From a virus (Duplodnaviria > Heunggongvirae > Uroviricota > Caudoviricetes): DNA of 41,649 bases. The translations under genes and the position numbers were made by a program. This document shows positions 1 to 12,784 of this stretch, in pieces. The stretch lies in IMG/VR virus record IMGVR_UViG_2660238349_000007; one strand, 5' to 3'. The notes beneath the pieces are model-generated. The model saw only the letters and a list, made by a program, of their open reading frames with translations, was not told where the DNA came from and made no database searches. Position 1 is the first letter of the stretch. Each line of letters starts with the position of its first letter.

Positions 1-270
<270 letters not shown>

Positions 271-469
271 TTACCGTTAAATCATTTTAAAATCAGTAAG
301 TTGTATCGAGTTTGTATGCTTTACTGTCATTAACTTACTGTATGTTGATCCAGTGTATTTAACCTTGATAAACTCAGTCCAGCAACACAAAACCGCAACA
401 CATTGCATTTTGTCCCGTAGAAAAGACTTGTATGTGTGAGCTTGTTTTCTGCGCCTACGCAGATAAGGA

Positions 470-1873
470 TTGAGAATGCCGCGCACTGTAACACATAATC
501 CGGATAGCCCCAATAATGACGATGTTTTAGCCGCATCTGAAAAATGGGACGCCTGTAAACCCCCCTATACCAGCGCACACATGAAAATCTGTGTTGCTGC
601 CGCCAAAATCATCCTCGCTGCTTCCGGCGTGGCTCGCCGTTCCAAATACGAAAAAGAGAACTATCTCCGTATCGATTTCAGCAAAGCCGGTAAGGTTACA
701 TTTTACGCCGAGTTTCCAAAAAAGATGGGCCTCAAGGGTAAAAAGCTCGGCGAGTGGCCGGAGCTCGCTATCCAGCTGGCGCGCGAAAAAGCGCTAGGTA
801 TGGCTGACGGTGGCCTGCGGGCAGAGTCCGTACATGCAGCGCTGGAAATGTACCGGGATGACCTCAAAGCCAAAGTCGCCCGGCAGAAGCTGAGCCCGGA
901 CAGTTTCACAACCTACGGGGTGCGTATCGACCGGATTAAAGCCACGTTCGGCGAGCGCGAGGTGTTCAGCGACGTAACATACAATCGGCTGGTGGAAGTG
1001 CTGGACGAGTGGATCGCCACTCGCTCGAACAATAACGCCCTGGAGTTGTTTGCCGAGCTCCGTCGGTTCTGGAAGTTCTGCGCACCTACTCTTTGCAATG
1101 GCCGCAATGTTGCCGCCAGTCTGCCAGATGATTATGTTTCCTCCCGCGTACAGAAACCCACCCCCACACGGCTTTTTACCGATATTGAATCAATCGCCCG
1201 ACTCTGGCTCAATGTTGCTGCCTGCACCTCTGTACACCAGAAGAATGCTGTTCGCTTCATGATCATCACTGGTGTTCGTCCGATTAATGTCCATAACCTG
1301 CGCTGGGATTACGTTCACGAGGAGGCTGGTGAAATTGTTTATCCGGAAGGGGTTATCGGCATGCGAGGGGCTATGAAAACACAAAAGGCTTTCCGCCTGC
1401 CGATAACGCCTGAGATCCGGCGGATTATCGACGAGCAGAAAGCCTGGCGTGATTCAGTTCCTGAGTGCAACAGGGATTATGTATTTTTGCAGCCACGTGA
1501 TCCAATGCAGCCATTTTCAAAACGATCACTGGATAAGCTGGTGAAAACATACAGCCCGGACGGGGCTGTAAAAGGAATAAAACATGATGGGACTGTTAAA
1601 GGGAAAGACGGTGCATTTAATACGATGTGCCGTAAATTCCTTAAGAGCAATGTTATTGCCTTGATGAAGGAAAGAGGCTATTCCCGCTCAGACCGAAGGG
1701 AAATCAGCCTCCTTTGCCTTCACCACTCCAGCAAGTCAGATGACCCGATGGCAGAACATTACGACTTTTCTGATGAGATTTTACAGGAAGAGATTGCGTT
1801 GAAGCGCGAAGCTTTCGAGGCTCACGAGCGGAGCATACTTGCGCAGGTGGCATTGCTACGGCGGCGAGGTTAA
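470..1873 (+). CDS. int: Tyrosine-type phage integrase
   Basis: 467-aa ORF with AAGGA RBS 8 nt upstream; C-terminal catalytic region with conserved R, H and HY tyrosine (…LCLHHSSK…AEHYDFSD); sits at the prophage edge. Confidence 0.8.
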   Translation: MRMPRTVTHNPDSPNNDDVLAASEKWDACKPPYTSAHMKICVAAAKIILAASGVARRSKYEKENYLRIDFSKAGKVTFYAEFPKKMGLKGKKLGEWPELAIQLAREKALGMADGGLRAESVHAALEMYRDDLKAKVARQKLSPDSFTTYGVRIDRIKATFGEREVFSDVTYNRLVEVLDEWIATRSNNNALELFAELRRFWKFCAPTLCNGRNVAASLPDDYVSSRVQKPTPTRLFTDIESIARLWLNVAACTSVHQKNAVRFMIITGVRPINVHNLRWDYVHEEAGEIVYPEGVIGMRGAMKTQKAFRLPITPEIRRIIDEQKAWRDSVPECNRDYVFLQPRDPMQPFSKRSLDKLVKTYSPDGAVKGIKHDGTVKGKDGAFNTMCRKFLKSNVIALMKERGYSRSDRREISLLCLHHSSKSDDPMAEHYDFSDEILQEEIALKREAFEAHERSILAQVALLRRRG

Positions 1874-2070
1874 TACTGGCTGCGACATTTTTGAATAAAA
1901 GCGTCGACATTTCGGCGCTCATAACGAACTACTTTTGCACTGAAACGAATTGGTGCCAGGATAGCCCGATGACGATGCTTAATATTCCACTCACATAGCG
2001 TTTTCTGTGTAATACCTAACTTTTGGCATACTTCATCCGGGGTGAGTAAATCGTCGGGTTTCTCGCTCAT
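1870..2070 (-). CDS. xis: Excisionase / AlpA-family HTH DNA-binding protein
   Basis: 66-aa ORF beside int with an AlpA-like helix-turn-helix (LLTPDEVCQKLGITQKTLCEW); start overlaps the stop of the upstream helicase gene. Confidence 0.6.
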   Translation of the reverse strand: MSEKPDDLLTPDEVCQKLGITQKTLCEWNIKHRHRAILAPIRFSAKVVRYERRNVDAFIQKCRSQY

Positions 2071-3458
2071 GCTATACCTCTCTTTTTCATGGCATCGAGC
2101 AGGATGTCCTGCACTGTTCGTTTTGAGTTGCGCCGCTCCATCACCATTTCGTCCATAGTGTCGGCAGCAATAATGTGGTGAATAAATACCGGACGATTGT
2201 GTCCGGCCTGTATCTGTCTGGTTGGGCCGATACGTTCAATAATTTGCTGATACTGCTCCAGGTCCCACCAATGTGAGAAAAATACCAGTATGTTTCCGCC
2301 GTCCTGCATGTTCAGACCGTGGCCCGCGCTGGCTGGGTGTGCAAAGAGAACAGGAATCTTTCCGGAATTCCAGTCACGTAGTGTCTGTGGATCCTGGTCG
2401 AGGTGACGACCGCGAGGAAATGCTTTAAGCAAGCGTTCAAGATCGTGTTTCCAGTGATAAGCAACCAGCACAGGTGCGCCAGCTGCTTCGGTCAGTATGC
2501 TGTCCAGCGCCTGTAGTTTGGTGTCATGCAGTTCTGACCAACTTCCGGTGTCATCTGTGTATACTGCGCCGCTGGCGATTTGCAGACACTTCAGTGTCTT
2601 TGCCGCGGCGTTCGGTGCTTCTATGCCTTCGCCATTCAGCTCGAGGAACATTTCCTTTTCCATTTCACGATACTGCTGACGGGCCTTCGGCGGCATATCC
2701 ACGCGGATTACGTTATGGATGGGGTCTTTGATATCGAACCAGTCGGTCGCATCCAGCGAGAGGGTCACATCGGCTAACGCTCGCTGTATTTCACCCTGTG
2801 AGTGAGCAAAAGGCTCCAGTTTGGTCCAGCTCTGCCCCGGAAACTGTATCGATTTGAACCAGCGTGAGGTAAACGCGCCGTAAGTGCGCCCGAGACGTTG
2901 CCCCAGGTCCACAAACCACGATTGTCCCCACAAATCTACCAGGCCGTTCGGTGCTGGCGTACCGGTGAGATTTATCCAGCGCCGGACATACTTGTGCGCC
3001 ACTTTGCCCAGCGCCGCCGCGCGCTTACCACCACCTCGCAGCCGGAAGGATTTTAGCCGGGTGCTTTCATCCGGAATGACAGTACCGAACGGCCATCGTT
3101 CTCCCAATTCTTCAACCAGCCAGACAAGGTTATCGTAGTTGATGGTGAACACGCTTGCGTTGCTGTTCGCCAGCGCCGTAGAGCGCGCTTTGACATTACC
3201 AACAATCGGCTGTACCTCGATATTGCGCAGATGCTTCCATTTCAGCGCTTCATCCGGCCATGTGCTTGCTGCAACGCGTAGCGGCGCGAGGACCAGTGCG
3301 GGGCGTGTTTCTGCCCCTGCCATAAAGAGATCTTCCAGCGTAGTGAGCGTTGCCACGGTTTTACCCATCCCCATCCCTGCCCAGATGTTGCCGCGCAGGG
3401 TCTCGATTTGATGATTGATGATGAGATCTTGGTAGGGACGTGGTTTAAAAGTTATCAT
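2067..3458 (-). CDS. SNF2-family (DEAD/DEAH-like) helicase
   Basis: 463-aa ORF with Walker A GMGKT, a DEST box (VIPDESTRLK) and LTGTPAPN motif III. Confidence 0.8.
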   Translation of the reverse strand: MITFKPRPYQDLIINHQIETLRGNIWAGMGMGKTVATLTTLEDLFMAGAETRPALVLAPLRVAASTWPDEALKWKHLRNIEVQPIVGNVKARSTALANSNASVFTINYDNLVWLVEELGERWPFGTVIPDESTRLKSFRLRGGGKRAAALGKVAHKYVRRWINLTGTPAPNGLVDLWGQSWFVDLGQRLGRTYGAFTSRWFKSIQFPGQSWTKLEPFAHSQGEIQRALADVTLSLDATDWFDIKDPIHNVIRVDMPPKARQQYREMEKEMFLELNGEGIEAPNAAAKTLKCLQIASGAVYTDDTGSWSELHDTKLQALDSILTEAAGAPVLVAYHWKHDLERLLKAFPRGRHLDQDPQTLRDWNSGKIPVLFAHPASAGHGLNMQDGGNILVFFSHWWDLEQYQQIIERIGPTRQIQAGHNRPVFIHHIIAADTMDEMVMERRNSKRTVQDILLDAMKKRGIA

Positions 3459-3481
3459 GAAGAAAATCCCTGATTAGAAAG

Positions 3482-4084
3482 GTGCTCTTGAACATCATGA
3501 ATGTAAAAGATTTATCAATTACAACGGTTCTCTTGGCCGCCCTTTATTTTATGGCTTTTTCTTTTTACAAAGGATACAGCTCATTTTATGGATTCCCTGT
3601 AAGTTTTATTTCTATTGGGATTGAGGAAATAGTTAAGTTTTCTGTTATTGCATTAGGACTTTTGTGCACCTTAGTCGCTTTGCTGCATATTGATACTGAA
3701 GAGAAGAATATTCCATGGGGGGTGTATTTATTTTTCTTCATTTTGGCCTCTTTGCTTTCATACTGGACAATGTATTTATATGGCGGTAGCTCATACCTTT
3801 ATGAAAAATCCATAAGGGATGTGGCTACCCAAGCAATACTATTGGGATTTATTAGCCCTATCAGTGTCAGGGCAGTATCTGTTTTTATTAGGAATGAATT
3901 TAGAATAAAAAACAAAACTCATGGGGTTATGTTTTTTATATCCATAGCAATGCTTCCTTCAGTCCTTGGGTGGGCATGGGCATACTTATCAGATGAGCCT
4001 CTTTTTTATTCTAAAAAATATGATGCTTATATTATCGAAAGCTATAACGGAAAATTTGTCTTGGGGAACTGTAAAAAAAAATAG
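3482..4084 (+). CDS. Hypothetical polytopic membrane protein (AT-rich moron, opposite strand to the surrounding operon)
   Basis: 200-aa ORF with four to five hydrophobic segments; visibly AT-rich; start uncertain (TTG 3482 or ATG 3497). Confidence 0.5.
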   Translation: MLLNIMNVKDLSITTVLLAALYFMAFSFYKGYSSFYGFPVSFISIGIEEIVKFSVIALGLLCTLVALLHIDTEEKNIPWGVYLFFFILASLLSYWTMYLYGGSSYLYEKSIRDVATQAILLGFISPISVRAVSVFIRNEFRIKNKTHGVMFFISIAMLPSVLGWAWAYLSDEPLFYSKKYDAYIIESYNGKFVLGNCKKK

Positions 4085-4213
4085 CTCTGAATTTATGAGT
4101 GTCGAAGGAATTGAGGGGAAATTAATTCCTGTAAGCATAAAAGAAACACAACAACTAAAAGTATGTTTTTTAAAAGCTTCTAAGCTCAAGAAAAATCGCT
4201 CAGAATGATTGTC

Positions 4214-4483
4214 TCACAATATCCCCTCTAAATTTTTGCTATCCAGTACTACCACGGTAAAGCCCAGCTTTCGCAGACGTTCATGCTCGCGCAACTGGTC
4301 AGGCCGTGGTGGTTTGCCGGGGGATTTACATTCAACGAAAACGATACGACCACCGGGTAGCAGGACAATGCGATCCGGTACCGAGCGGTGACCGGGAGAT
4401 ACAAACTTAAAGGCCACTCCGCCAGCTTTTTTCACTTCAGCGACGAGGTGCTTTTCGATAAGGCTTTCACGTTCATAGGCCAT
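4214..4483 (-). CDS. VRR-NUC domain nuclease
   Basis: ORF matching the VRR-NUC pattern (PD…VECK…, basic C-terminus) as recalled; start trimmed to the ATG at 4481-4483, just after the upstream stop. Confidence 0.65.
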   Translation of the reverse strand: MAYERESLIEKHLVAEVKKAGGVAFKFVSPGHRSVPDRIVLLPGGRIVFVECKSPGKPPRPDQLREHERLRKLGFTVVVLDSKNLEGIL

Positions 4484-4772
4484 CTGAATCCCACTCTTCA
4501 AAAAGCACATTCAATTCCAGTTTCTCTGCCAACGCGTTTTCTGCACGTGCGCCGGCAGAGTACTCCCACTCTTTGAGCATATAAATCGTATCGGCACAGC
4601 GAAGCATTGCGAGGCAGATGTCCATGTACTGAGCCTGTGTCAAACCATCGGGTAAAGTTGCGGGGTTAAGCACAATATATCCCTTGTCCGTTAGCCTCTT
4701 TGCTGCGGAATGAAAAGCCGGGCGGTTAAATTGCTCGTAACCGCTCATCGGCCCGGCAACGTAAACGATCAT
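4473..4772 (-). CDS. Nucleoside 2-deoxyribosyltransferase-like protein (DUF4406/DUF1937-like)
   Basis: 99-aa ORF beginning MIVYVAGPMSG, a pattern typical of this fold; commonly found beside phage DNA polymerases. Confidence 0.45.
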   Translation of the reverse strand: MIVYVAGPMSGYEQFNRPAFHSAAKRLTDKGYIVLNPATLPDGLTQAQYMDICLAMLRCADTIYMLKEWEYSAGARAENALAEKLELNVLFEEWDSDGL

Positions 4773-4984
4773 TCTTCGACCACCTTACGCTTTTCACGCA
4801 TATTCTGCATCAGGCAAAAATCAGATCTGCGTTCACTCCATTCCTGATTCAATTCGTGATGTGATTCGCGGTTGGCTTTTGCCCAGACCTTCGCTGCCCG
4901 GTCATATTCGCCGGATTGTTCAAGTCGCAAAGCCTCCCTTGCGGCCCTGTAATAAAGTGGATTGTCCCGGTATTTAAATGACAT
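4769..4984 (-). CDS. Small hypothetical protein, possibly a PerC-like regulator
   Basis: 71-aa ORF translationally coupled to neighbours; the YYRAAREALRLEQSGEYDRAAKVW stretch resembles PerC/Pch-like proteins from memory only. Confidence 0.3.
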   Translation of the reverse strand: MSFKYRDNPLYYRAAREALRLEQSGEYDRAAKVWAKANRESHHELNQEWSERRSDFCLMQNMREKRKVVEE

Positions 4985-4989
4985 AGGAG

Positions 4990-7053
4990 TTAATCCTTAC
5001 GGTAGTGGTACGCCTCAAAACCGCCAGCGTTCAGTGGGATATCGGGTGCCCATTCGGGGTTAGTGGAGAGAAGCGCGGAAAGCGCTTTATCGTTGAAATC
5101 TTCTGTGTCAGGTGCTTCGGTGATCACCTCGTCGTGTACCGTCAACACAATGCTGTAACCGGCATCTTCGATAAGCGGCATGTTTCCGGCCAGAACGTCG
5201 CGGGCGGCTGCCTGGGTGACGTTCTCCACCAGCTTTCCGCCGTAGGTTTTGAGTCGTTGCCATTTACGCGAATAAGAGTTAACACCCATGTAGGTGATAT
5301 TTCCTTTTTCGATAACCGGAGACGGGTAGCATACAGCGCGTCCGGATGGTAGCTGTATGCGCAGCCACGCGCCATCACGTCGGATTTTAAGATAGCCGCA
5401 ATACAATGTTTTTTGCGGTGTGGCGATTGCTGTGCGGACGGTGCGCTCCAGTTCGTACCAGAAATCGCAGGTCGCCGGGTGCGCCCTGCGCCAGAGACGT
5501 TTAAGTGAGTCGCAGGCGATAAATACCCGTTCAGAAAGCCCGTAGGTTGACTTGCGTTTAACCGATTCGTCGTACCAGCTTTTCGCCTCGCGGATAACAT
5601 CGCGGGGAATGTTTGGTAGTGCGGCGTTCGCCAGCTCGTCGAGATCGAGACCGTAAACCAGTGCAAAAGTGATGAAGGCCGACACACCACCACCATAACC
5701 CAGACCGAGTTCCATGACTTTACCGATCTGACGCATGTGTTTATCAACATCATCTGGTGCAATATCGAAAGCTTTTGCATACGCCAGTTTATATAAGTCC
5801 GGACCCGTTCCGGCGTCGTACTCTCTGAATGCATTCAGTTTCCATTCTTCTCCCGCCAGCCATGCCAGCATACGGCCTTCAATGTTCGACAAGTCACTTA
5901 CCACCAGCTTTTTGCCTGTTGGCGCGATAATGCAGCCACGTAACGCTGAACTGGTTAGTTCCATGATATTGTCAAACAGCAGGTCTGCACATCCGGCTTT
6001 CAGTGCTTCGATGCCTTCGTCTATTTGTTCCTGTTTTAGTGAAGGGCGGGGAAGGTTCTGGGGCTGGAATAGCCGTCCGGCCCAACGACCGGTACGTGAC
6101 GCCCCGCAGAACTGTAGCGTACCGCGTAAGCGCCCGTCGTGGCTTACGCCTTTCATCAGTGCCTTGTATTTACTGGTGCTGGTAGTACTGGCCTGCAGGC
6201 GGATAGCCAGCAGTTCTTTCACGGCAGATGGTAAATCGGGGTCGGCAATACGACGTTCCAGAGTACTGCGTTGCATGTCTGGTAGCTCCACACCGTAGGA
6301 TTCAACAATGTGCTTAATCAACGCGTCTCGTTGTGTGGCTGCCTGCACTTCGCCATCAGTCATTTCCTGTGTACGCTTTGCTAGGCGCTTTTGTTCCTGG
6401 TCTACCGCTTCGATCGCAGCGCGTGCGAGTTGCATGTCCATGCAGACGCCCCGGTCATTGATCTGCTGATCACGATGCCAGAGCGCCAGTTCTGTCCCCT
6501 GATAATTCCACTTCGGCAGACGTTTATAGACTTCGCGCATTGCCTCGATATCCAGTCCGGCGTAAGCAACAAAGCGCCGCCATTCTTCCGGGTGGGTTTT
6601 ACTGGTGGCCCGACGCAGTTTGCTGTTTTTCGGGCGTGGCTTACAGAACAGCTGGATCAGCGCTTTACCTTCTTTGTCCTTCGCTTTGTCTTGCGGGACG
6701 CCTAGTACTTCGCAGAGTTCCCCCAGAGACCCCGGGAGACCGTGCGCCAGCGCCTGCACCATCGTGTCGCGCCAACGTTCGACTGGCGGTGCCAGTCGCG
6801 GCATTGCATAACGCAGAACGGTGCGGTCGAAGTGAGAGTTATGGAAATAAAGCAGGGTTTCAGGGTCTGCGATTGCTTCGTATAAGCCGTGTGGAATACC
6901 ACCACCGGCAGTGATATCCCACACGTTTACTGGCCCGTCGTTGATAGCCCATGCGAAAAGCATCACTTCAACGCCTTCGGCATACGCATGGGTACCGTTG
7001 TTGATCGGAATGTCACAATAGGTTTCCAGGTCGCCCCATAGTATATTGGACAT
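4990..7053 (-). CDS. Family-A DNA polymerase with N-terminal 3'-5' exonuclease domain
   Basis: 687-aa ORF; N-terminal exonuclease-like region (WGDLETY…) and C-terminal family-A palm motifs (…[12 protein letters not shown]…, …LTVHDEV…); GAGGA RBS. Confidence 0.88.
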
Positions 7054-7114
7054 AAAATATCCTCATATGGTATATGGTTAAATGCTAGATATCATGAATT
7101 AAAGGAGACAACTA

Positions 7115-7804
7115 ATGACTGTGGGTAATAAGAGACAGCCTAATGGATTACCTGAATATTATTGTCACCGTGGTAACGACATAAAAGATGCGATAGTTCG
7201 GGATTTTATTATTCAGCCTGTTGCACACCTGAAACTTATTACTGGACAAACTAAAACCAGTTATTCCGGTTATCCGTTAACCGATCAGTACTATTGTTTT
7301 TCATTTAAAAAACGCTCTGATGAAAATTGTACAGGGGCTTTTTTCTGTGGTAGAGATGTTGCAAAGGATTTCATTCGGCGTATCGGTTGTACAGAGCTGC
7401 CGTTATTTAATCCTATGAAATCGGATACCAGTGCAGCAATAGAACGTTCCGGTTCTGGCTCAGGTAGTTCTGGTATTACTGTCAAGCCAAATGCTGACAA
7501 AAAGCTATTTATAGACGCAGCTCGTCTGTTAATGACGCTGTGGGATTCAACAAGTAAGGGACAAACCCCACTGGCGTCGGTTCTTAATGAAGCAATTTCT
7601 GGTGGTATAGATAAACCTCCAGAAATTAGACATGTAGTGGCGGTTAATACAATGTTGGGTAACACAAAAAATACTTTAACTGGTTTGCTGGATAAAGCAA
7701 GAGCGAAGTATCCTGATGTGTTATTCAGAGATTTTGATTTCACGCCTCTTAACGAGATTGTAAAACGTTCAAAATCATATAATAAGCATCCCCCTTGTTA
7801 TTGA
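7115..7804 (+). CDS. Hypothetical two-domain Cys-rich protein (moron on opposite strand)
   Basis: 229-aa ORF with strong RBS AAAGGAGA; Cys/His-rich N-terminal half, SGSGSGSSG linker, helical C-terminal half; AT-rich compared with flanks. Confidence 0.5.
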   Translation: MTVGNKRQPNGLPEYYCHRGNDIKDAIVRDFIIQPVAHLKLITGQTKTSYSGYPLTDQYYCFSFKKRSDENCTGAFFCGRDVAKDFIRRIGCTELPLFNPMKSDTSAAIERSGSGSGSSGITVKPNADKKLFIDAARLLMTLWDSTSKGQTPLASVLNEAISGGIDKPPEIRHVVAVNTMLGNTKNTLTGLLDKARAKYPDVLFRDFDFTPLNEIVKRSKSYNKHPPCY

Positions 7805-8439
7805 GTATCAGACACTGTATTGGTAGGAAGGCCTATCATTTCATTTAATGTCTCTCGATGTACTGCTGGTGCTAAAGGGACTGGCGGTGCGTCTGTTGGA
7901 AGCAGTTCTTTAGCTTCGGGCCATACATCCAGTAATCGTTTTACTGTCCGAACTTTATTTAGAGCCGCGCTGACGTTCTGTATGATTTCGGTTTCATCAC
8001 TTTTAATTTGTGTGTAGAGAGCATCAAAGCTATAAAACTCCGTTACCAGAGGATCTTCGCCAAGTAGAGTAAATTCTGCAGGTGCTATTTTATTAATATG
8101 CTCGGGGGCTCCTGATTCATAACCTCTGTAGTTGCCATTGAAATAAATGTTTGCTCTGGCTCCAGCCAGATTGAGATATATGCAGCAATCTTTTCGAATT
8201 AAAGAACTATTGGTTTTTAATGAATCAGGGATTTTTGTTACCATGGATTCAATCTTTTTTATATTTTTTAATATTTCAGCTTCTTTCTCTACGCCCCCGA
8301 TAGCTGCAAGCCGAACACGTTCGGCCCATTCAACACGAGCAGCTCGTAGTGCTGATTTACGTTTGGGGATACCCGCTTTCTCAAGTGCGTTATTGATGAT
8401 TTGAGTTTTAAGGTGATTAGTTAATACGGGCTGTGACAT
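7798..8439 (-). CDS. Hypothetical protein
   Basis: ORF in the early-left operon; start trimmed to MSQPVL with GAGGGA RBS; no recognisable motif. Confidence 0.5.
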   Translation of the reverse strand: MSQPVLTNHLKTQIINNALEKAGIPKRKSALRAARVEWAERVRLAAIGGVEKEAEILKNIKKIESMVTKIPDSLKTNSSLIRKDCCIYLNLAGARANIYFNGNYRGYESGAPEHINKIAPAEFTLLGEDPLVTEFYSFDALYTQIKSDETEIIQNVSAALNKVRTVKRLLDVWPEAKELLPTDAPPVPLAPAVHRETLNEMIGLPTNTVSDTQ

Positions 8440-8490
8440 TATTCTTTCCCTCATGAGATACCCCAGCACGTAGCTGGGGGATGAATATTT

Positions 8491-9039
8491 TTAAATTAGT
8501 GCTTCAGCATCAGCACCTTCGCTGATATCGTCGAAATCGTCAGCGCTTGCCACTCCGCCGCCAGCGAATGCATCGCCGTCTCGCAGGAACTGGACTCCTC
8601 CGAGTGAGGCATTAATGCGTTTACCGAAATTATTGTCCTGTGCCCAGATATCGATAACGGCGTTTACATAGCACCCTGCATAGGGACGTCCATCAGCCTG
8701 AATTAGTGGCGAACGATCGCGATCAAGAACAGCTGGGCGCGCTTTGTTAGCAGCGTTCAGGAAGAAATTGCCGGGAAAGCCTTCATACTCTGCTTTTTCA
8801 TCACCATCATGCAGGCACAGATTGAGTTTTTTCTCCAGCTGGTTATAAATGGACTCCCACTTCTCCCCCCATTTTTCCTTCGCTACCTGCTTCATAGCTT
8901 TACGGATTTCTTCCAGTTGTGGGTGTTTGGGTGACATTAAAAATACTGCGGAGAAACGTGGATCGCCTTCGCCGTTTACTGTTTTAGCTTCAAACAGAGA
9001 CGGGAAGGCCAGACGAACATTGTTCAGCTTCAGTTTCAT
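8491..9039 (-). CDS. Phage SSB-like protein (DUF2815-like)
   Basis: 182-aa ORF with acidic C-terminal tail (DDFDDISEGADAEALI) typical of SSB partner-binding tails; sits beside the DUF2800-like nuclease. Confidence 0.55.
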   Translation of the reverse strand: MKLKLNNVRLAFPSLFEAKTVNGEGDPRFSAVFLMSPKHPQLEEIRKAMKQVAKEKWGEKWESIYNQLEKKLNLCLHDGDEKAEYEGFPGNFFLNAANKARPAVLDRDRSPLIQADGRPYAGCYVNAVIDIWAQDNNFGKRINASLGGVQFLRDGDAFAGGGVASADDFDDISEGADAEALI

Positions 9040-12040: not shown

Positions 12041-12664
12041 CTAACGTTTACGGCGGTAAATACGGTGTTCGATCATTACACCTATGATCTGTAAGTTCAT
12101 ATCTGCACTACGAAAAATAGGGTAATCAGGATTTAGGGGGATTAATTCAAAGTCGTCGATGCCGATTCCTAATGGACGGTATTTTTTAAATGTAGCTTCG
12201 TGACCGTCGTTTTTGGCGACAACAAACTCCCCTGGTGCAGGACATAGATCAGGATCGATGATAACAATGTCTCCTTCTTTAAACTCTGGTTGCATGCTGT
12301 CGCCATCGATACGTAATGCGAAGCATGTTTCTGGAATGTCAGAGTCTGCCAAAATATATTCAAATTCCCCTGTCAGATCTGTTATGTCTCTTGCTTCTGT
12401 AAGCTCTCCTGCCTGAACGTAACTTAATATAGGTATGCGTCTGGTACTTATCTCCGCGAGAGGCATAATATTTTTACCGTTCAGTAGCCAGTCTGGGCTA
12501 CATTTCAAGGCCTTAGCCAGATCCAGAAGATTGCGTGGCTTTCTGGTTCGTCCACTTTCGATGGATTCTATGGATTGTTGGCTAACCCCTGCAGAATTCG
12601 CTACTTCCACTTGAGTCATTCCTAATTCCAAACGACGTGCTTTAAAACGGGCTGCGAGAGACAT
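12041..12664 (-). CDS. cI: CI-like repressor (HTH-XRE plus S24 LexA-like peptidase domain)
   Basis: N-terminal HTH (LGMTQVEVANSAGVSQQSIESIESG); C-terminal autocleavage domain with catalytic Ser/Lys context (GDSMQPEF…KKY); start trimmed to MSLAARF. Confidence 0.85.
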   Translation of the reverse strand: MSLAARFKARRLELGMTQVEVANSAGVSQQSIESIESGRTRKPRNLLDLAKALKCSPDWLLNGKNIMPLAEISTRRIPILSYVQAGELTEARDITDLTGEFEYILADSDIPETCFALRIDGDSMQPEFKEGDIVIIDPDLCPAPGEFVVAKNDGHEATFKKYRPLGIGIDDFELIPLNPDYPIFRSADMNLQIIGVMIEHRIYRRKR

Positions 12665-12784
12665 GGGATTAGTCCTTCTGGGTTGTATTAATGTGTATCT
12701 CCACATTAAAAACAATTTTTGTTGTATTTGACAAACCTCGTTTGTTGTTGCTAAATACCACTAAAATTGTATGAGGTGAAAGCA
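12665..12784. promoter_or_regulatory. Divergent immunity control region (PRM/PR-like) with operator palindromes
   Basis: Intergenic between divergent cI and cro; perfect palindrome TTAATGTG-tatctc-CACATTAA at 12688-12709; repeated GTTGTATT; TTGACA at 12728-12733. Confidence 0.5.

What the first reader, a model, noticed from the sequence alone, without database searches (positions are those of the whole stretch)
3482..4084. AT-rich polytopic membrane protein gene on the opposite strand between helicase and VRR-NUC genes
The ORF is markedly more AT-rich than its flanks and is transcribed against the early operon, indicating horizontal acquisition. Lysogen-expressed membrane proteins in this position often act in superinfection exclusion or abortive infection. 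The downstream 130 bp before the VRR-NUC gene is also AT-rich and may carry its terminator.
Basis: partly seen in the sequence, partly recalled or inferred. Interest (0 to 1): 0.55.

Follow-up and report, generated by a model that had tools for sequence, protein, structure and literature searches.

The report
Frameshift-truncated prophage membrane cargo gene
The AT-rich opposite-strand ORF is a real accessory gene of an E. coli prophage, from a rare uncharacterised family of five-helix membrane proteins, but this copy is cut short by one extra A in a poly-A run, so the supposed downstream terminator region is really the out-of-frame end of the gene.

Summary
An ORF (true start ATG 3497, stop 4084, + strand) lies between the SNF2 helicase and VRR-NUC genes, which are both on the - strand. 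It is the most AT-rich stretch of the window (GC 0.34, z = -3.4).

The gene is longer than the ORF. An A9 run (4073-4081) shifts the frame. Strains with A8 encode a 236-aa protein ending at TGA 4206-4208, 5 nt from the VRR-NUC stop. So the "AT-rich 130 bp downstream" is coding sequence, not a terminator.

A8 to A9 arose on at least three SNP backgrounds. Eleven of 21 complete E. coli genomes carrying the gene have a truncated copy.

The protein has five TM helices (predicted N-in) and a roughly 70-aa predicted periplasmic C-terminal domain. The only invariant residues of the family are two cysteines, and the truncation removes the second.

The family is rare (37 clusters among 1.8 billion representatives) and matches no Pfam, PHROG, PADLOC, NCBIfam, PDB or BFVD entry. 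Four of the five distant members checked lie in prophages, one of them in the P2 S-V moron site; the fifth lies in a genomic island.

The helicase/VRR-NUC slot is hypervariable, and other prophages carry TIR-like or PDC-S42 genes there. A role in superinfection exclusion or defence is plausible but untested, and this copy is probably impaired.

The parts
3429..3458 (+). Promoter-like site TTGGTA-18 nt-TATCAT. It is embedded in the first codons of the divergent helicase gene and would fire into the cargo gene.
   Evidence: Consensus scan, (9/12 matches; the number of sites in the region is not above shuffles). The two hexamers are conserved with 18-nt spacing in loci that carry the membrane gene (window, L001, L003, L007, L011), and the -10 differs in loci with other cargo. 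Weak, inferred only.
3497..4084 (+). Truncated ORF of the membrane protein gene as it stands in the window: 195 codons plus TAG. It encodes TM1-TM5 and the first half of the C-terminal domain, ending ...GNC(192)KKK*.
   Evidence: The exact 195-aa sequence occurs on 77 public contigs (P0021).
3907..3912 (+). Second, shorter A run (A6). It is A7 in strain A34, giving an additional frameshift there.
4073..4081 (+). A9 homopolymer run that causes the frameshift. The intact allele has A8.
   Evidence: Alignment. A8 and A9 alleles occur on three SNP backgrounds. The run is absent from the more distant homologues examined (A5-A6).
4080..4208 (+). Out-of-frame 3' end of the gene, corresponding to residues N195-E236 of the intact protein plus TGA. 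It encodes two beta strands, the C-terminal helix, the KETQQLKxCFL motif and invariant Cys223.
   Evidence: pN is much lower than pS in this segment among homologues.
2067..3458 (-). SNF2-family helicase gene. It forms the left border of the cargo slot. Its start codon lies 38 nt from the cargo gene's ATG.
4214..4483 (-). VRR-NUC / PD-(D/E)XK nuclease gene. It forms the right border of the slot. Its stop codon lies 5 nt from the intact cargo gene's stop, so the two genes converge.

Best explanation
This is a non-essential accessory ('moron-type') gene of an E. coli prophage integrated next to yfhL. The prophage has an APSE/BPP-1-like replication module. The gene sits in a hypervariable cargo slot between the helicase and VRR-NUC genes, on the opposite strand to the replication operon.

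Its intact form is a 236-aa inner-membrane protein. It has five TM helices, a predicted N-in/C-out topology, and a roughly 70-aa periplasmic beta/alpha domain that is probably held by a Cys192-Cys223 disulfide.

In this window, a +1 slip in an A8 run (now A9, 4073-4081) truncates it after residue 195. That removes half of the periplasmic domain and Cys223. This copy is most likely a loss-of-function or attenuated allele produced at a mutational hot spot.

Most likely function of the intact protein (inferred, not shown): a lysogen-expressed envelope protein that interferes with infection by other phages at the periplasm/inner-membrane step. That would make it a form of superinfection exclusion or another envelope-acting anti-phage effect.

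Shown here: gene structure, the frameshift, family conservation, synteny, and variability of the slot. Inferred: topology, the disulfide, the promoter, expression from the lysogen, and the anti-phage role.
For: Frameshift.
- A9 versus A8 is the only difference from FDAARGOS_144 over 1101 nt.
- PGAP annotates a 711-nt ORF in the A8 strains.
- Full-length homologues at 48-77% identity are 234-246 aa and conserve the C-terminal KETQQLKxCFL motif.
- pN is much lower than pS in residues 196-236.

Recurrence.
- A8 to A9 occurs on three SNP backgrounds.
- The truncated alleles are seen on 77 and 434 contigs, the intact allele on 453.

Protein.
- Five TM helices plus a beta/alpha C-terminal domain.
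- Across 33 family members at 15-77% identity, the only invariant columns are C192 and C223.
- K+R density is 0.16-0.20 in the N-terminus, loop 2 and loop 4, and 0.01-0.07 in loops 1 and 3. Every member has exactly two Cys in its last 60 residues.

Accessory and cargo nature.
- The gene is present in 21 of 151 related E. coli prophages.
- The slot otherwise holds a TIR-like protein, DUF6338, Rha+Arc, Dcm, or PDC-S42 (PADLOC E = 6e-40), and P42+Ant in APSE-1.
- Distant homologues sit in the same slot (L024), in the S-V moron site of a P2-like prophage (the site is described in PMC6823313 and PMC3091744), and near the integrase of a third prophage type.
- The gene diverges much faster than its flanks. 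The helicase is 93-94% identical where the membrane protein is 49-66%, and 79% where it is about 20%.
- 9A runs are known to be hypermutable and slippage-prone (PMC1088944).
Against: - Guilt by location is weak. The same slot also carries regulators (Rha, Arc, Ant) and a methyltransferase.
- The promoter prediction is not above chance, and no terminator was found.
- Half of the natural copies are truncated. This could mean the gene is dispensable or costly rather than useful, or that the TM part alone is the active moiety.
- One distant member (P0035) lies in a genomic island next to a YafO toxin-antitoxin pair, not in an obvious prophage.
Confidence: 0.55

Rival explanations
1. The A8/A9 run is a functional switch, not damage. 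One possibility is heritable phase variation that turns a costly envelope protein on and off in the lysogen population. The other is transcriptional or +1 ribosomal slippage at A9-TAG that makes both a TM-only 195-aa form and a full-length 236-aa form from one allele.
For: - The same +1 change recurs on three backgrounds, and both states are common.
- A second A run also varies (A6/A7).
- 9A runs cause transcriptional slippage in many bacteria (PMC1088944).
- An interrupted tssM1 gene is rescued at 20-25% by slippage on an A11 run, and both of its isoforms are needed (PMC4256274).
- The 0-frame stop lies immediately after the run.
- The 125 nt after the run are identical in the four sequences aligned, and across all nine alleles only two positions there vary (4110 and 4195), so no decay is evident in the A9 lineages.
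Against: - The run is not conserved. Salmonella, Enterobacter, BFo2 and metagenome homologues have A5-A6 at this site because of R/S/N codons. Slippage is therefore not a family feature.
- A9 lineages appear clonally stable, for example ten EHEC O26/O111-type complete genomes.
- A8/A9 is short for a classical contingency locus.
- Restoring the frame from A9 needs -1 or +2 nt in the mRNA. No efficiency data exist for this sequence.
- So few differences in 125 nt are uninformative, because only about one SNP would be expected there.
Confidence: 0.12
2. It is a lysogenic-conversion or phage-lifecycle membrane protein unrelated to phage defence. Examples would be a protein that modifies or senses the envelope for the benefit of the host, or one that acts in the phage's own DNA entry, replication anchoring or lysis timing.
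For: - It is a membrane protein with a periplasmic domain.
- It has kept the same position inside a replication/recombination operon across genera.
- It is under purifying selection.
- The slot also carries non-defence cargo such as Rha, Arc, Ant and Dcm.
Against: - It is dispensable for the phage. 130 of 151 related E. coli prophages lack it, as does the inducible phage vB_EcoM-606R2.
- It is on the opposite strand to the lytic operon.
- No enzyme-like domain is present.
- None was found in 50,697 sequenced phage genomes.
- It also occurs in unrelated prophage backbones at moron sites.
Confidence: 0.2
3. It is an abortive-infection or toxic membrane effector, for example a pore or depolarising protein like RexB or the TM effectors of defence systems. 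It would be triggered during infection and kill the cell. Its toxicity would explain the recurrent inactivation.
For: - It is a multi-pass membrane protein in a slot that alternates with TIR-type effector genes.
- Independent truncations recur, which is compatible with a fitness cost.
Against: - There is no associated sensor gene in the slot, which holds a single gene flanked directly by the helicase and VRR-NUC genes.
- The most conserved part is a small periplasmic two-Cys domain rather than the TM bundle.
- There is no similarity to any PADLOC effector model.
Confidence: 0.1

Closest known systems
Phage 'morons' / prophage accessory cargo slots (for example the P2 orf30, Z/fun and TO regions, and HK97-type morons)
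   Same: - It is present or absent among otherwise collinear prophages.
- Its base composition deviates strongly (GC 0.34 against about 0.54).
- It has its own orientation against the surrounding operon.
- It has a putative promoter of its own.
- One distant family member sits in the classical P2 S-V (orf30) moron site (PMC6823313, PMC3091744).
   Different: - No relative with an empty slot was seen; the slot always holds some cargo.
- No terminator was found, and the intact gene ends 5 nt from the convergent VRR-NUC stop.
- The gene is an old occupant of the slot across genera rather than a recent insertion.
Membrane superinfection-exclusion proteins (P22 SieA, T4 Imm, HK97 gp15)
   Same: It is a small prophage-encoded inner-membrane protein, dispensable for the phage and located in an accessory position. 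A predicted periplasm-facing domain could meet incoming phage DNA or ejection proteins.
   Different: - There is no sequence relation (hhalign against P22 SieA, probability 0.2%).
- The architecture differs: five TM helices plus a two-Cys beta/alpha domain.
- Exclusion activity has not been tested.
Defence hotspots in prophages and satellites (PADLOC candidate systems PDC-S42 and PDC-S35; TIR effectors)
   Same: The same slot carries PDC-S42 or a TIR-like gene in sister prophages. A neighbouring slot carries PDC-S35/TIR.
   Different: The gene matches no PADLOC model. It is not known as a defence gene.
Genes interrupted at poly-A runs and rescued by transcriptional slippage (C. rodentium tssM1, Shigella mxiE, IS-element 9A sites)
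   Same: It has a homopolymer A run followed directly by a stop, with the conserved C-terminal domain encoded in another frame (PMC4256274, PMC1088944).
   Different: - The run is 9 nt, not 11.
- It is not conserved among homologues.
- Intact A8 alleles coexist.
- Rescue would need -1 or +2 nt, and no expression data exist.

Membership tests
Unnamed 5-TM / two-Cys prophage membrane protein family (37 clusters; alignments A3, A4) | Conserved N-terminal motif (LYF.A..F..G...F.G.P..FI) and five hydrophobic helices over a length of about 230-265 aa | tested here: met
   The window ORF 3497-4081 is 100% identical to residues 1-194 of the intact E. coli allele. It has five TM helices.
Unnamed 5-TM / two-Cys prophage membrane protein family (37 clusters; alignments A3, A4) | Two invariant cysteines (C192, C223) in the C-terminal domain | tested here: not met
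   C192 is in frame. C223 is encoded only out of frame (within 4080-4208) because of the A9 run. The DNA is a member of the family; the encoded product is a truncated one.
Moron (independent accessory transcription unit in a phage genome) | Present in some and absent from other closely related phages at the same position | tested here: met
   21 of 151 E. coli prophages carry it. The others carry different cargo between the same helicase and VRR-NUC genes.
Moron (independent accessory transcription unit in a phage genome) | Base composition distinct from the surrounding phage genes | tested here: met
   GC is 0.34 against 0.50-0.54 and GC3 is 0.33 against 0.49-0.58. The same holds in all relatives.
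Moron (independent accessory transcription unit in a phage genome) | Own promoter and terminator | tested here: inconclusive
   There is a promoter-like site at 3429-3458, but the count is not above shuffles. No terminator was found between the gene and VRR-NUC.
Moron (independent accessory transcription unit in a phage genome) | Expressed from the repressed prophage | not testable with these tools
   No transcript data are available.
Superinfection exclusion proteins (SieA type) | Homology to a characterised Sie protein | tested here: not met
   hhalign of A4 against P22 SieA gives probability 0.2%. There are no PHROG or Pfam hits.
Superinfection exclusion proteins (SieA type) | Blocks infection or DNA entry of superinfecting phage when expressed | not testable with these tools
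   This needs plating and DNA-injection assays.
Known anti-phage defence systems (PADLOC-DB v2) | Match to a defence-protein model | tested here: not met
   No family matched at E <= 0.01.
Programmed frameshift / transcriptional-slippage gene | Slippery run conserved among homologues, with the two-frame organisation preserved | tested here: not met
   Homologues have A5-A6 at the site and a single continuous ORF.
Phase-variable (contingency) locus | Length-polymorphic homopolymer inside the ORF that toggles the reading frame | tested here: met
   A8 and A9 alleles occur on three otherwise identical or near-identical backgrounds.
Phase-variable (contingency) locus | Reversible high-frequency switching within a clonal population | not testable with these tools
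   This needs deep sequencing of single-colony cultures. The clonal stability of A9 in EHEC-type genomes argues for low rates.

The most novel reading that the evidence does not exclude
The gene founds an undescribed family of prophage-encoded inner-membrane anti-phage (exclusion) proteins with a disulfide-bonded periplasmic domain. In the E. coli lineage its activity is toggled or split into two isoforms by slippage at the A8/A9 run. That would make it a phase-variable or slippage-tuned prophage defence.
Probability: 0.1. Interest if true: 0.65.

Novelty: new member of a known kind. Interest (0 to 1): 0.35.

Why it matters
If the intact protein does exclude phages, it would add a new, structurally unrecognised family to the small set of envelope-acting superinfection-exclusion proteins. 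It is compact: five TM helices plus a two-Cys periplasmic domain. It would also mark the helicase/VRR-NUC slot of APSE/BPP-1-like prophages as a defence-cargo hotspot worth mining, since TIR-like, PDC-S42 and DUF6338 genes sit there too.

There is a practical annotation point. The 195-aa 'hypothetical protein' found in many E. coli genomes, including EHEC O26/O111 lineages, is a frameshift allele of a 236-aa gene. Any experiment should use the A8 form.

As it stands, this is an ordinary prophage accessory gene of unknown function, probably inactivated in this window.

Tried and rejected
- Family libraries: Pfam, PHROGs, PADLOC and NCBIfam scans of the truncated ORF, the C-terminal fragment, the intact protein and all 33 family members gave no credible family.
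- Phage genomes: blastn and tblastn of three family members against 50,697 phage genomes gave no match.
- Specific comparisons: hhalign against P22 SieA and against the DUF6338 protein that occupies the same slot in another strain showed no relation.
- Collection scans: the genome-contig scan with alignment A3 confirmed no relative. Alignment A4 was too divergent for pattern scans.
- Second homologue search: the search with profile A4 gave no informative names.
- Literature: searches for the protein accessions, the related phage name and the PDC names found nothing.
- Terminator or RNA element in 4085-4213: rejected.
- Recent horizontal insertion as the cause of the AT-richness: rejected, because low GC and the syntenic position are conserved across genera.
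- One-off sequencing error as the cause of A9: considered unlikely, because the exact truncated protein occurs on 77 contigs and a second truncated allele on 434.

Full report
**1. What is there**

The window is an E. coli prophage integrated beside yfhL (ferredoxin-like gene, 1-261, - strand). Its gene order is as follows:
- integrase (470-1873, +) and an AlpA/excisionase-like gene (1870-2070, -);
- SNF2 helicase (2067-3458, -);
- the ORF in question (+ strand);
- VRR-NUC nuclease (4214-4483/4510, -), DUF4406 (4473-4772, -) and an ANR-family regulator (4769-4984, -);
- family-A DNA polymerase (4990-7053, -);
- further left-reading replication and recombination genes: Nmad5, an Enc34-type ssDNA-binding protein and a DUF2800 PD-(D/E)XK exonuclease;
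- a CI-like repressor (12041-12715, -), a VapE-type primase and structural genes.

The helicase is 96.5% identical to that of the inducible phages vB_EcoM-606R2, -689R2 and -611R5. It is about 73% identical to Hamiltonella APSE phages and about 66% identical to Bordetella BPP-1.

**2.

The ORF 3482-4084 exists on the + strand, opposite to both neighbours.

The stretch 3497-4208 has GC 0.34 and is the lowest 712-nt stretch in the window (z = -3.4). Its GC3 of 0.33, against 0.49-0.58 in the flanking genes, shows a real compositional difference.

The start is most likely ATG 3497. PGAP uses it in every annotated relative, and all but one of the aligned full-length homologues begin MN(V/L/I)K (P0011 has a 10-residue N-terminal extension).

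**3. The ORF is a frameshift-truncated allele**

Right before the stop there is a run of nine A (4073-4081, then TAG 4082-4084).

Strain FDAARGOS_144 is identical to the window at the other 1100 positions of 3300-4400 but has eight A. Its ORF runs to TGA (window 4206-4208) and encodes 236 aa. That stop lies only 5 nt from the convergent VRR-NUC stop.

No terminator-like hairpin, Rfam family or unusual folding is found there.

The 236-aa form is ancestral:
- Homologues at 48-77% identity are 234-246 aa and conserve the C-terminal KETQQLKxCFL motif.
- pN is far below pS in residues 196-236, as in the rest of the gene.

**4. The A run is a recurrent mutational hot spot, not a conserved recoding site**

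Among 21 complete E. coli genomes with the gene, 10 are intact and 11 truncated. Eight of these were checked directly; the rest were inferred from match length (1100 against 1101 nt) and annotation.

A8 and A9 pairs occur on three SNP backgrounds:
- the window against FDAARGOS_144;
- 97-3250 and O111:H11 8D against MLI108K3;
- A34, which also has A7 instead of A6 at 3907-3912.

In the 15-billion-protein collection:
- the window's exact 195-aa product is on 77 contigs;
- the EHEC-type truncated product is on 434 contigs;
- the intact product is on 453 contigs.

A9 is therefore a real, inherited allele rather than a one-off assembly error.

More distant homologues from Salmonella, Enterobacter, a thrips symbiont and metagenomes have only A5-A6 at this site. 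The run is thus a lineage-specific by-product (CKKN instead of CRKN/CSKN) and not a conserved slippery signal.

Published work shows that 9A runs are both hypermutable and prone to transcriptional slippage (PMC1088944). An A11-interrupted tssM1 gene is rescued at 20-25% by such slippage (PMC4256274). Some full-length product from the A9 allele therefore cannot be excluded. It remains a minority hypothesis.

**5. The protein**

Hydropathy analysis gives five hydrophobic segments.

An AlphaFold2 model built on 14 homologues (pLDDT 83.9, pTM 0.83) gives helices 8-31, 42-63, 74-95, 106-132 and 140-164. A small beta sheet (170-211) and a C-terminal helix (214-235) follow.

A profile search of 1.84 billion cluster representatives finds only 37 proteins, nearly all 228-265 aa and matched end to end. 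In an alignment of 33 of them (15-77% identity), the only invariant columns are Cys192 and Cys223.

Across the family, K+R density is high in the N-terminus, loop 2 and loop 4 (0.16-0.20). It is very low in loops 1 and 3 (0.01-0.07). Every member has exactly two Cys in its last 60 residues.

By the positive-inside rule this gives an N-in/C-out topology with a periplasmic C-terminal domain. The two invariant cysteines are best explained as a disulfide. Both the topology and the disulfide are inferences.

The window's allele ends three residues after Cys192. It loses two strands, the helix and Cys223, so it most likely cannot form this domain.

**6. Relation to known families**

Sources name the protein only as 'hypothetical protein' or 'membrane protein'. 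No member is present in 50,697 sequenced phage genomes. It does occur in IMG/VR prophage contigs.

**7. Genomic context across relatives**

The gene sits in exactly the same place, between helicase and VRR-NUC on the opposite strand, in several prophages:
- Salmonella (L007);
- the thrips symbiont BFo2 (L011);
- gut-metagenome contigs (L008-L010, L017-L020);
- a member only about 20% identical (P0041, L024).

Its GC is 0.29-0.39 in every context, against 0.46-0.54 for the surrounding loci. Low GC is therefore a stable property of the family and not a sign of recent arrival.

The gene diverges much faster than its flanks. The helicase is 93-94% identical where the membrane protein is 49-66%, and 79% where it is about 20%. 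This means either rapid evolution or cassette exchange among family members. Both are typical of conflict genes, but neither is proof.

Other distant members lie in three settings:
- the S-V (orf30) site of a P2-like prophage, a textbook moron site (PMC6823313, PMC3091744);
- the integrase-proximal early region of a third prophage type;
- an island next to a YafO toxin-antitoxin pair.

**8. The slot is hypervariable**

In E. coli prophages with the same integrase, helicase and nuclease, the slot instead carries one of the following:
- a 305-aa protein with a weak TIR match (PADLOC E = 1e-6);
- a DUF6338 protein plus a 47-aa ORF;
- Rha plus Arc-family regulators;
- a 106-aa ORF plus a cytosine methyltransferase;
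- a three-gene set whose first gene matches the PADLOC candidate PDC-S42 (E = 6e-40).

APSE-1 has a regulator and Ant there. A neighbouring slot between ANR and the polymerase carries a TIR protein (PDC-S35, E = 1e-108) in several strains.

The location therefore fits accessory and defence cargo, though not exclusively.

**9. Transcription (inferred)**

Only 38 nt separate the helicase ATG from the cargo ATG. Any promoter must therefore lie inside the helicase 5' end.

A TTGGTA-18-TATCAT site at 3429-3458 is present and conserved where the gene is present. Such matches are not more frequent here than in shuffled sequence.

The - strand operon must read antisense through the gene to reach the helicase. 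Lytic transcription would then be expected to oppose the gene's expression. This matches a lysogen-expressed gene but is untested.

**10. Verdict**

Three points need correction:
- The gene is an old, alternative occupant of a variable slot, not a recent insertion.
- The downstream AT-rich segment is its own 3' end.
- This particular copy is truncated at a hypermutable A run and is probably impaired.

The most likely function of the intact protein is envelope-level interference with incoming phages (probability about 0.4-0.5). The rivals are a non-defence conversion or lifecycle role, an abortive-infection effector, and a functional A8/A9 switch.

This is a new, uncharacterised member of a well-known kind of element and is of modest interest.

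Noticed in passing
window 7000-8500 (ORF 7115-7804 +; Nmad5 gene 7798-8469 -): This is a second AT-rich island (GC 0.39-0.41). It contains another opposite-strand ORF (229 aa, soluble, with no Pfam, PHROG, PADLOC or NCBIfam hit) just past the DNA polymerase gene. In related prophages the same position holds unrelated + strand genes, several with a TM helix (L008, L009, L011, L013, L029). It looks like a second variable cargo slot.
   Followed up: partly
L004 3372-4133, L026 3324-4085, L028 4198-4959, L013 2875-3636 (between the ANR regulator and DNA polymerase genes; the equivalent position in the window is about 4984-4990): Sister prophages, including the inducible phage vB_EcoM-606R2, carry a 253-aa TIR-domain protein that matches the PADLOC candidate PDC-S35 (E = 1e-108). 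It sits in a slot that is empty in this window, where ANR and the polymerase are 5 nt apart.
   Followed up: partly
L029 1819-3492 (helicase/VRR-NUC slot of E. coli MS20659): This is a three-gene + strand cassette. Its first gene matches the PADLOC candidate PDC-S42 (E = 6e-40) and weakly matches DUF7946. The other two genes (82 and 176 aa) have no family.
   Followed up: partly
L004 about 1663-1724 (between the helicase and the TIR-like gene in strain Rb-50): A GC-rich hairpin followed by a T run (AAAAGGCC-AATTT-AGGCCTTTTGTTGTTTT) sits in the short spacer. It looks like an intrinsic terminator or attenuator inside the operon. It is absent from the window's version of the slot.
   Followed up: no
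L016 (IMGVR_UViG_2563366853_000010), whole locus: An IMG/VR viral contig has integrase, helicase, VRR-NUC and polymerase proteins 100% identical to those of the window, at the same coordinates. It is probably the same prophage sequence as the window.
   Followed up: no
L004 3129-3307 and L028 3956-4134: The ANR-family regulator gene is annotated as frameshifted in several sister prophages. This is another small early gene with recurrent frame disruption.
   Followed up: no
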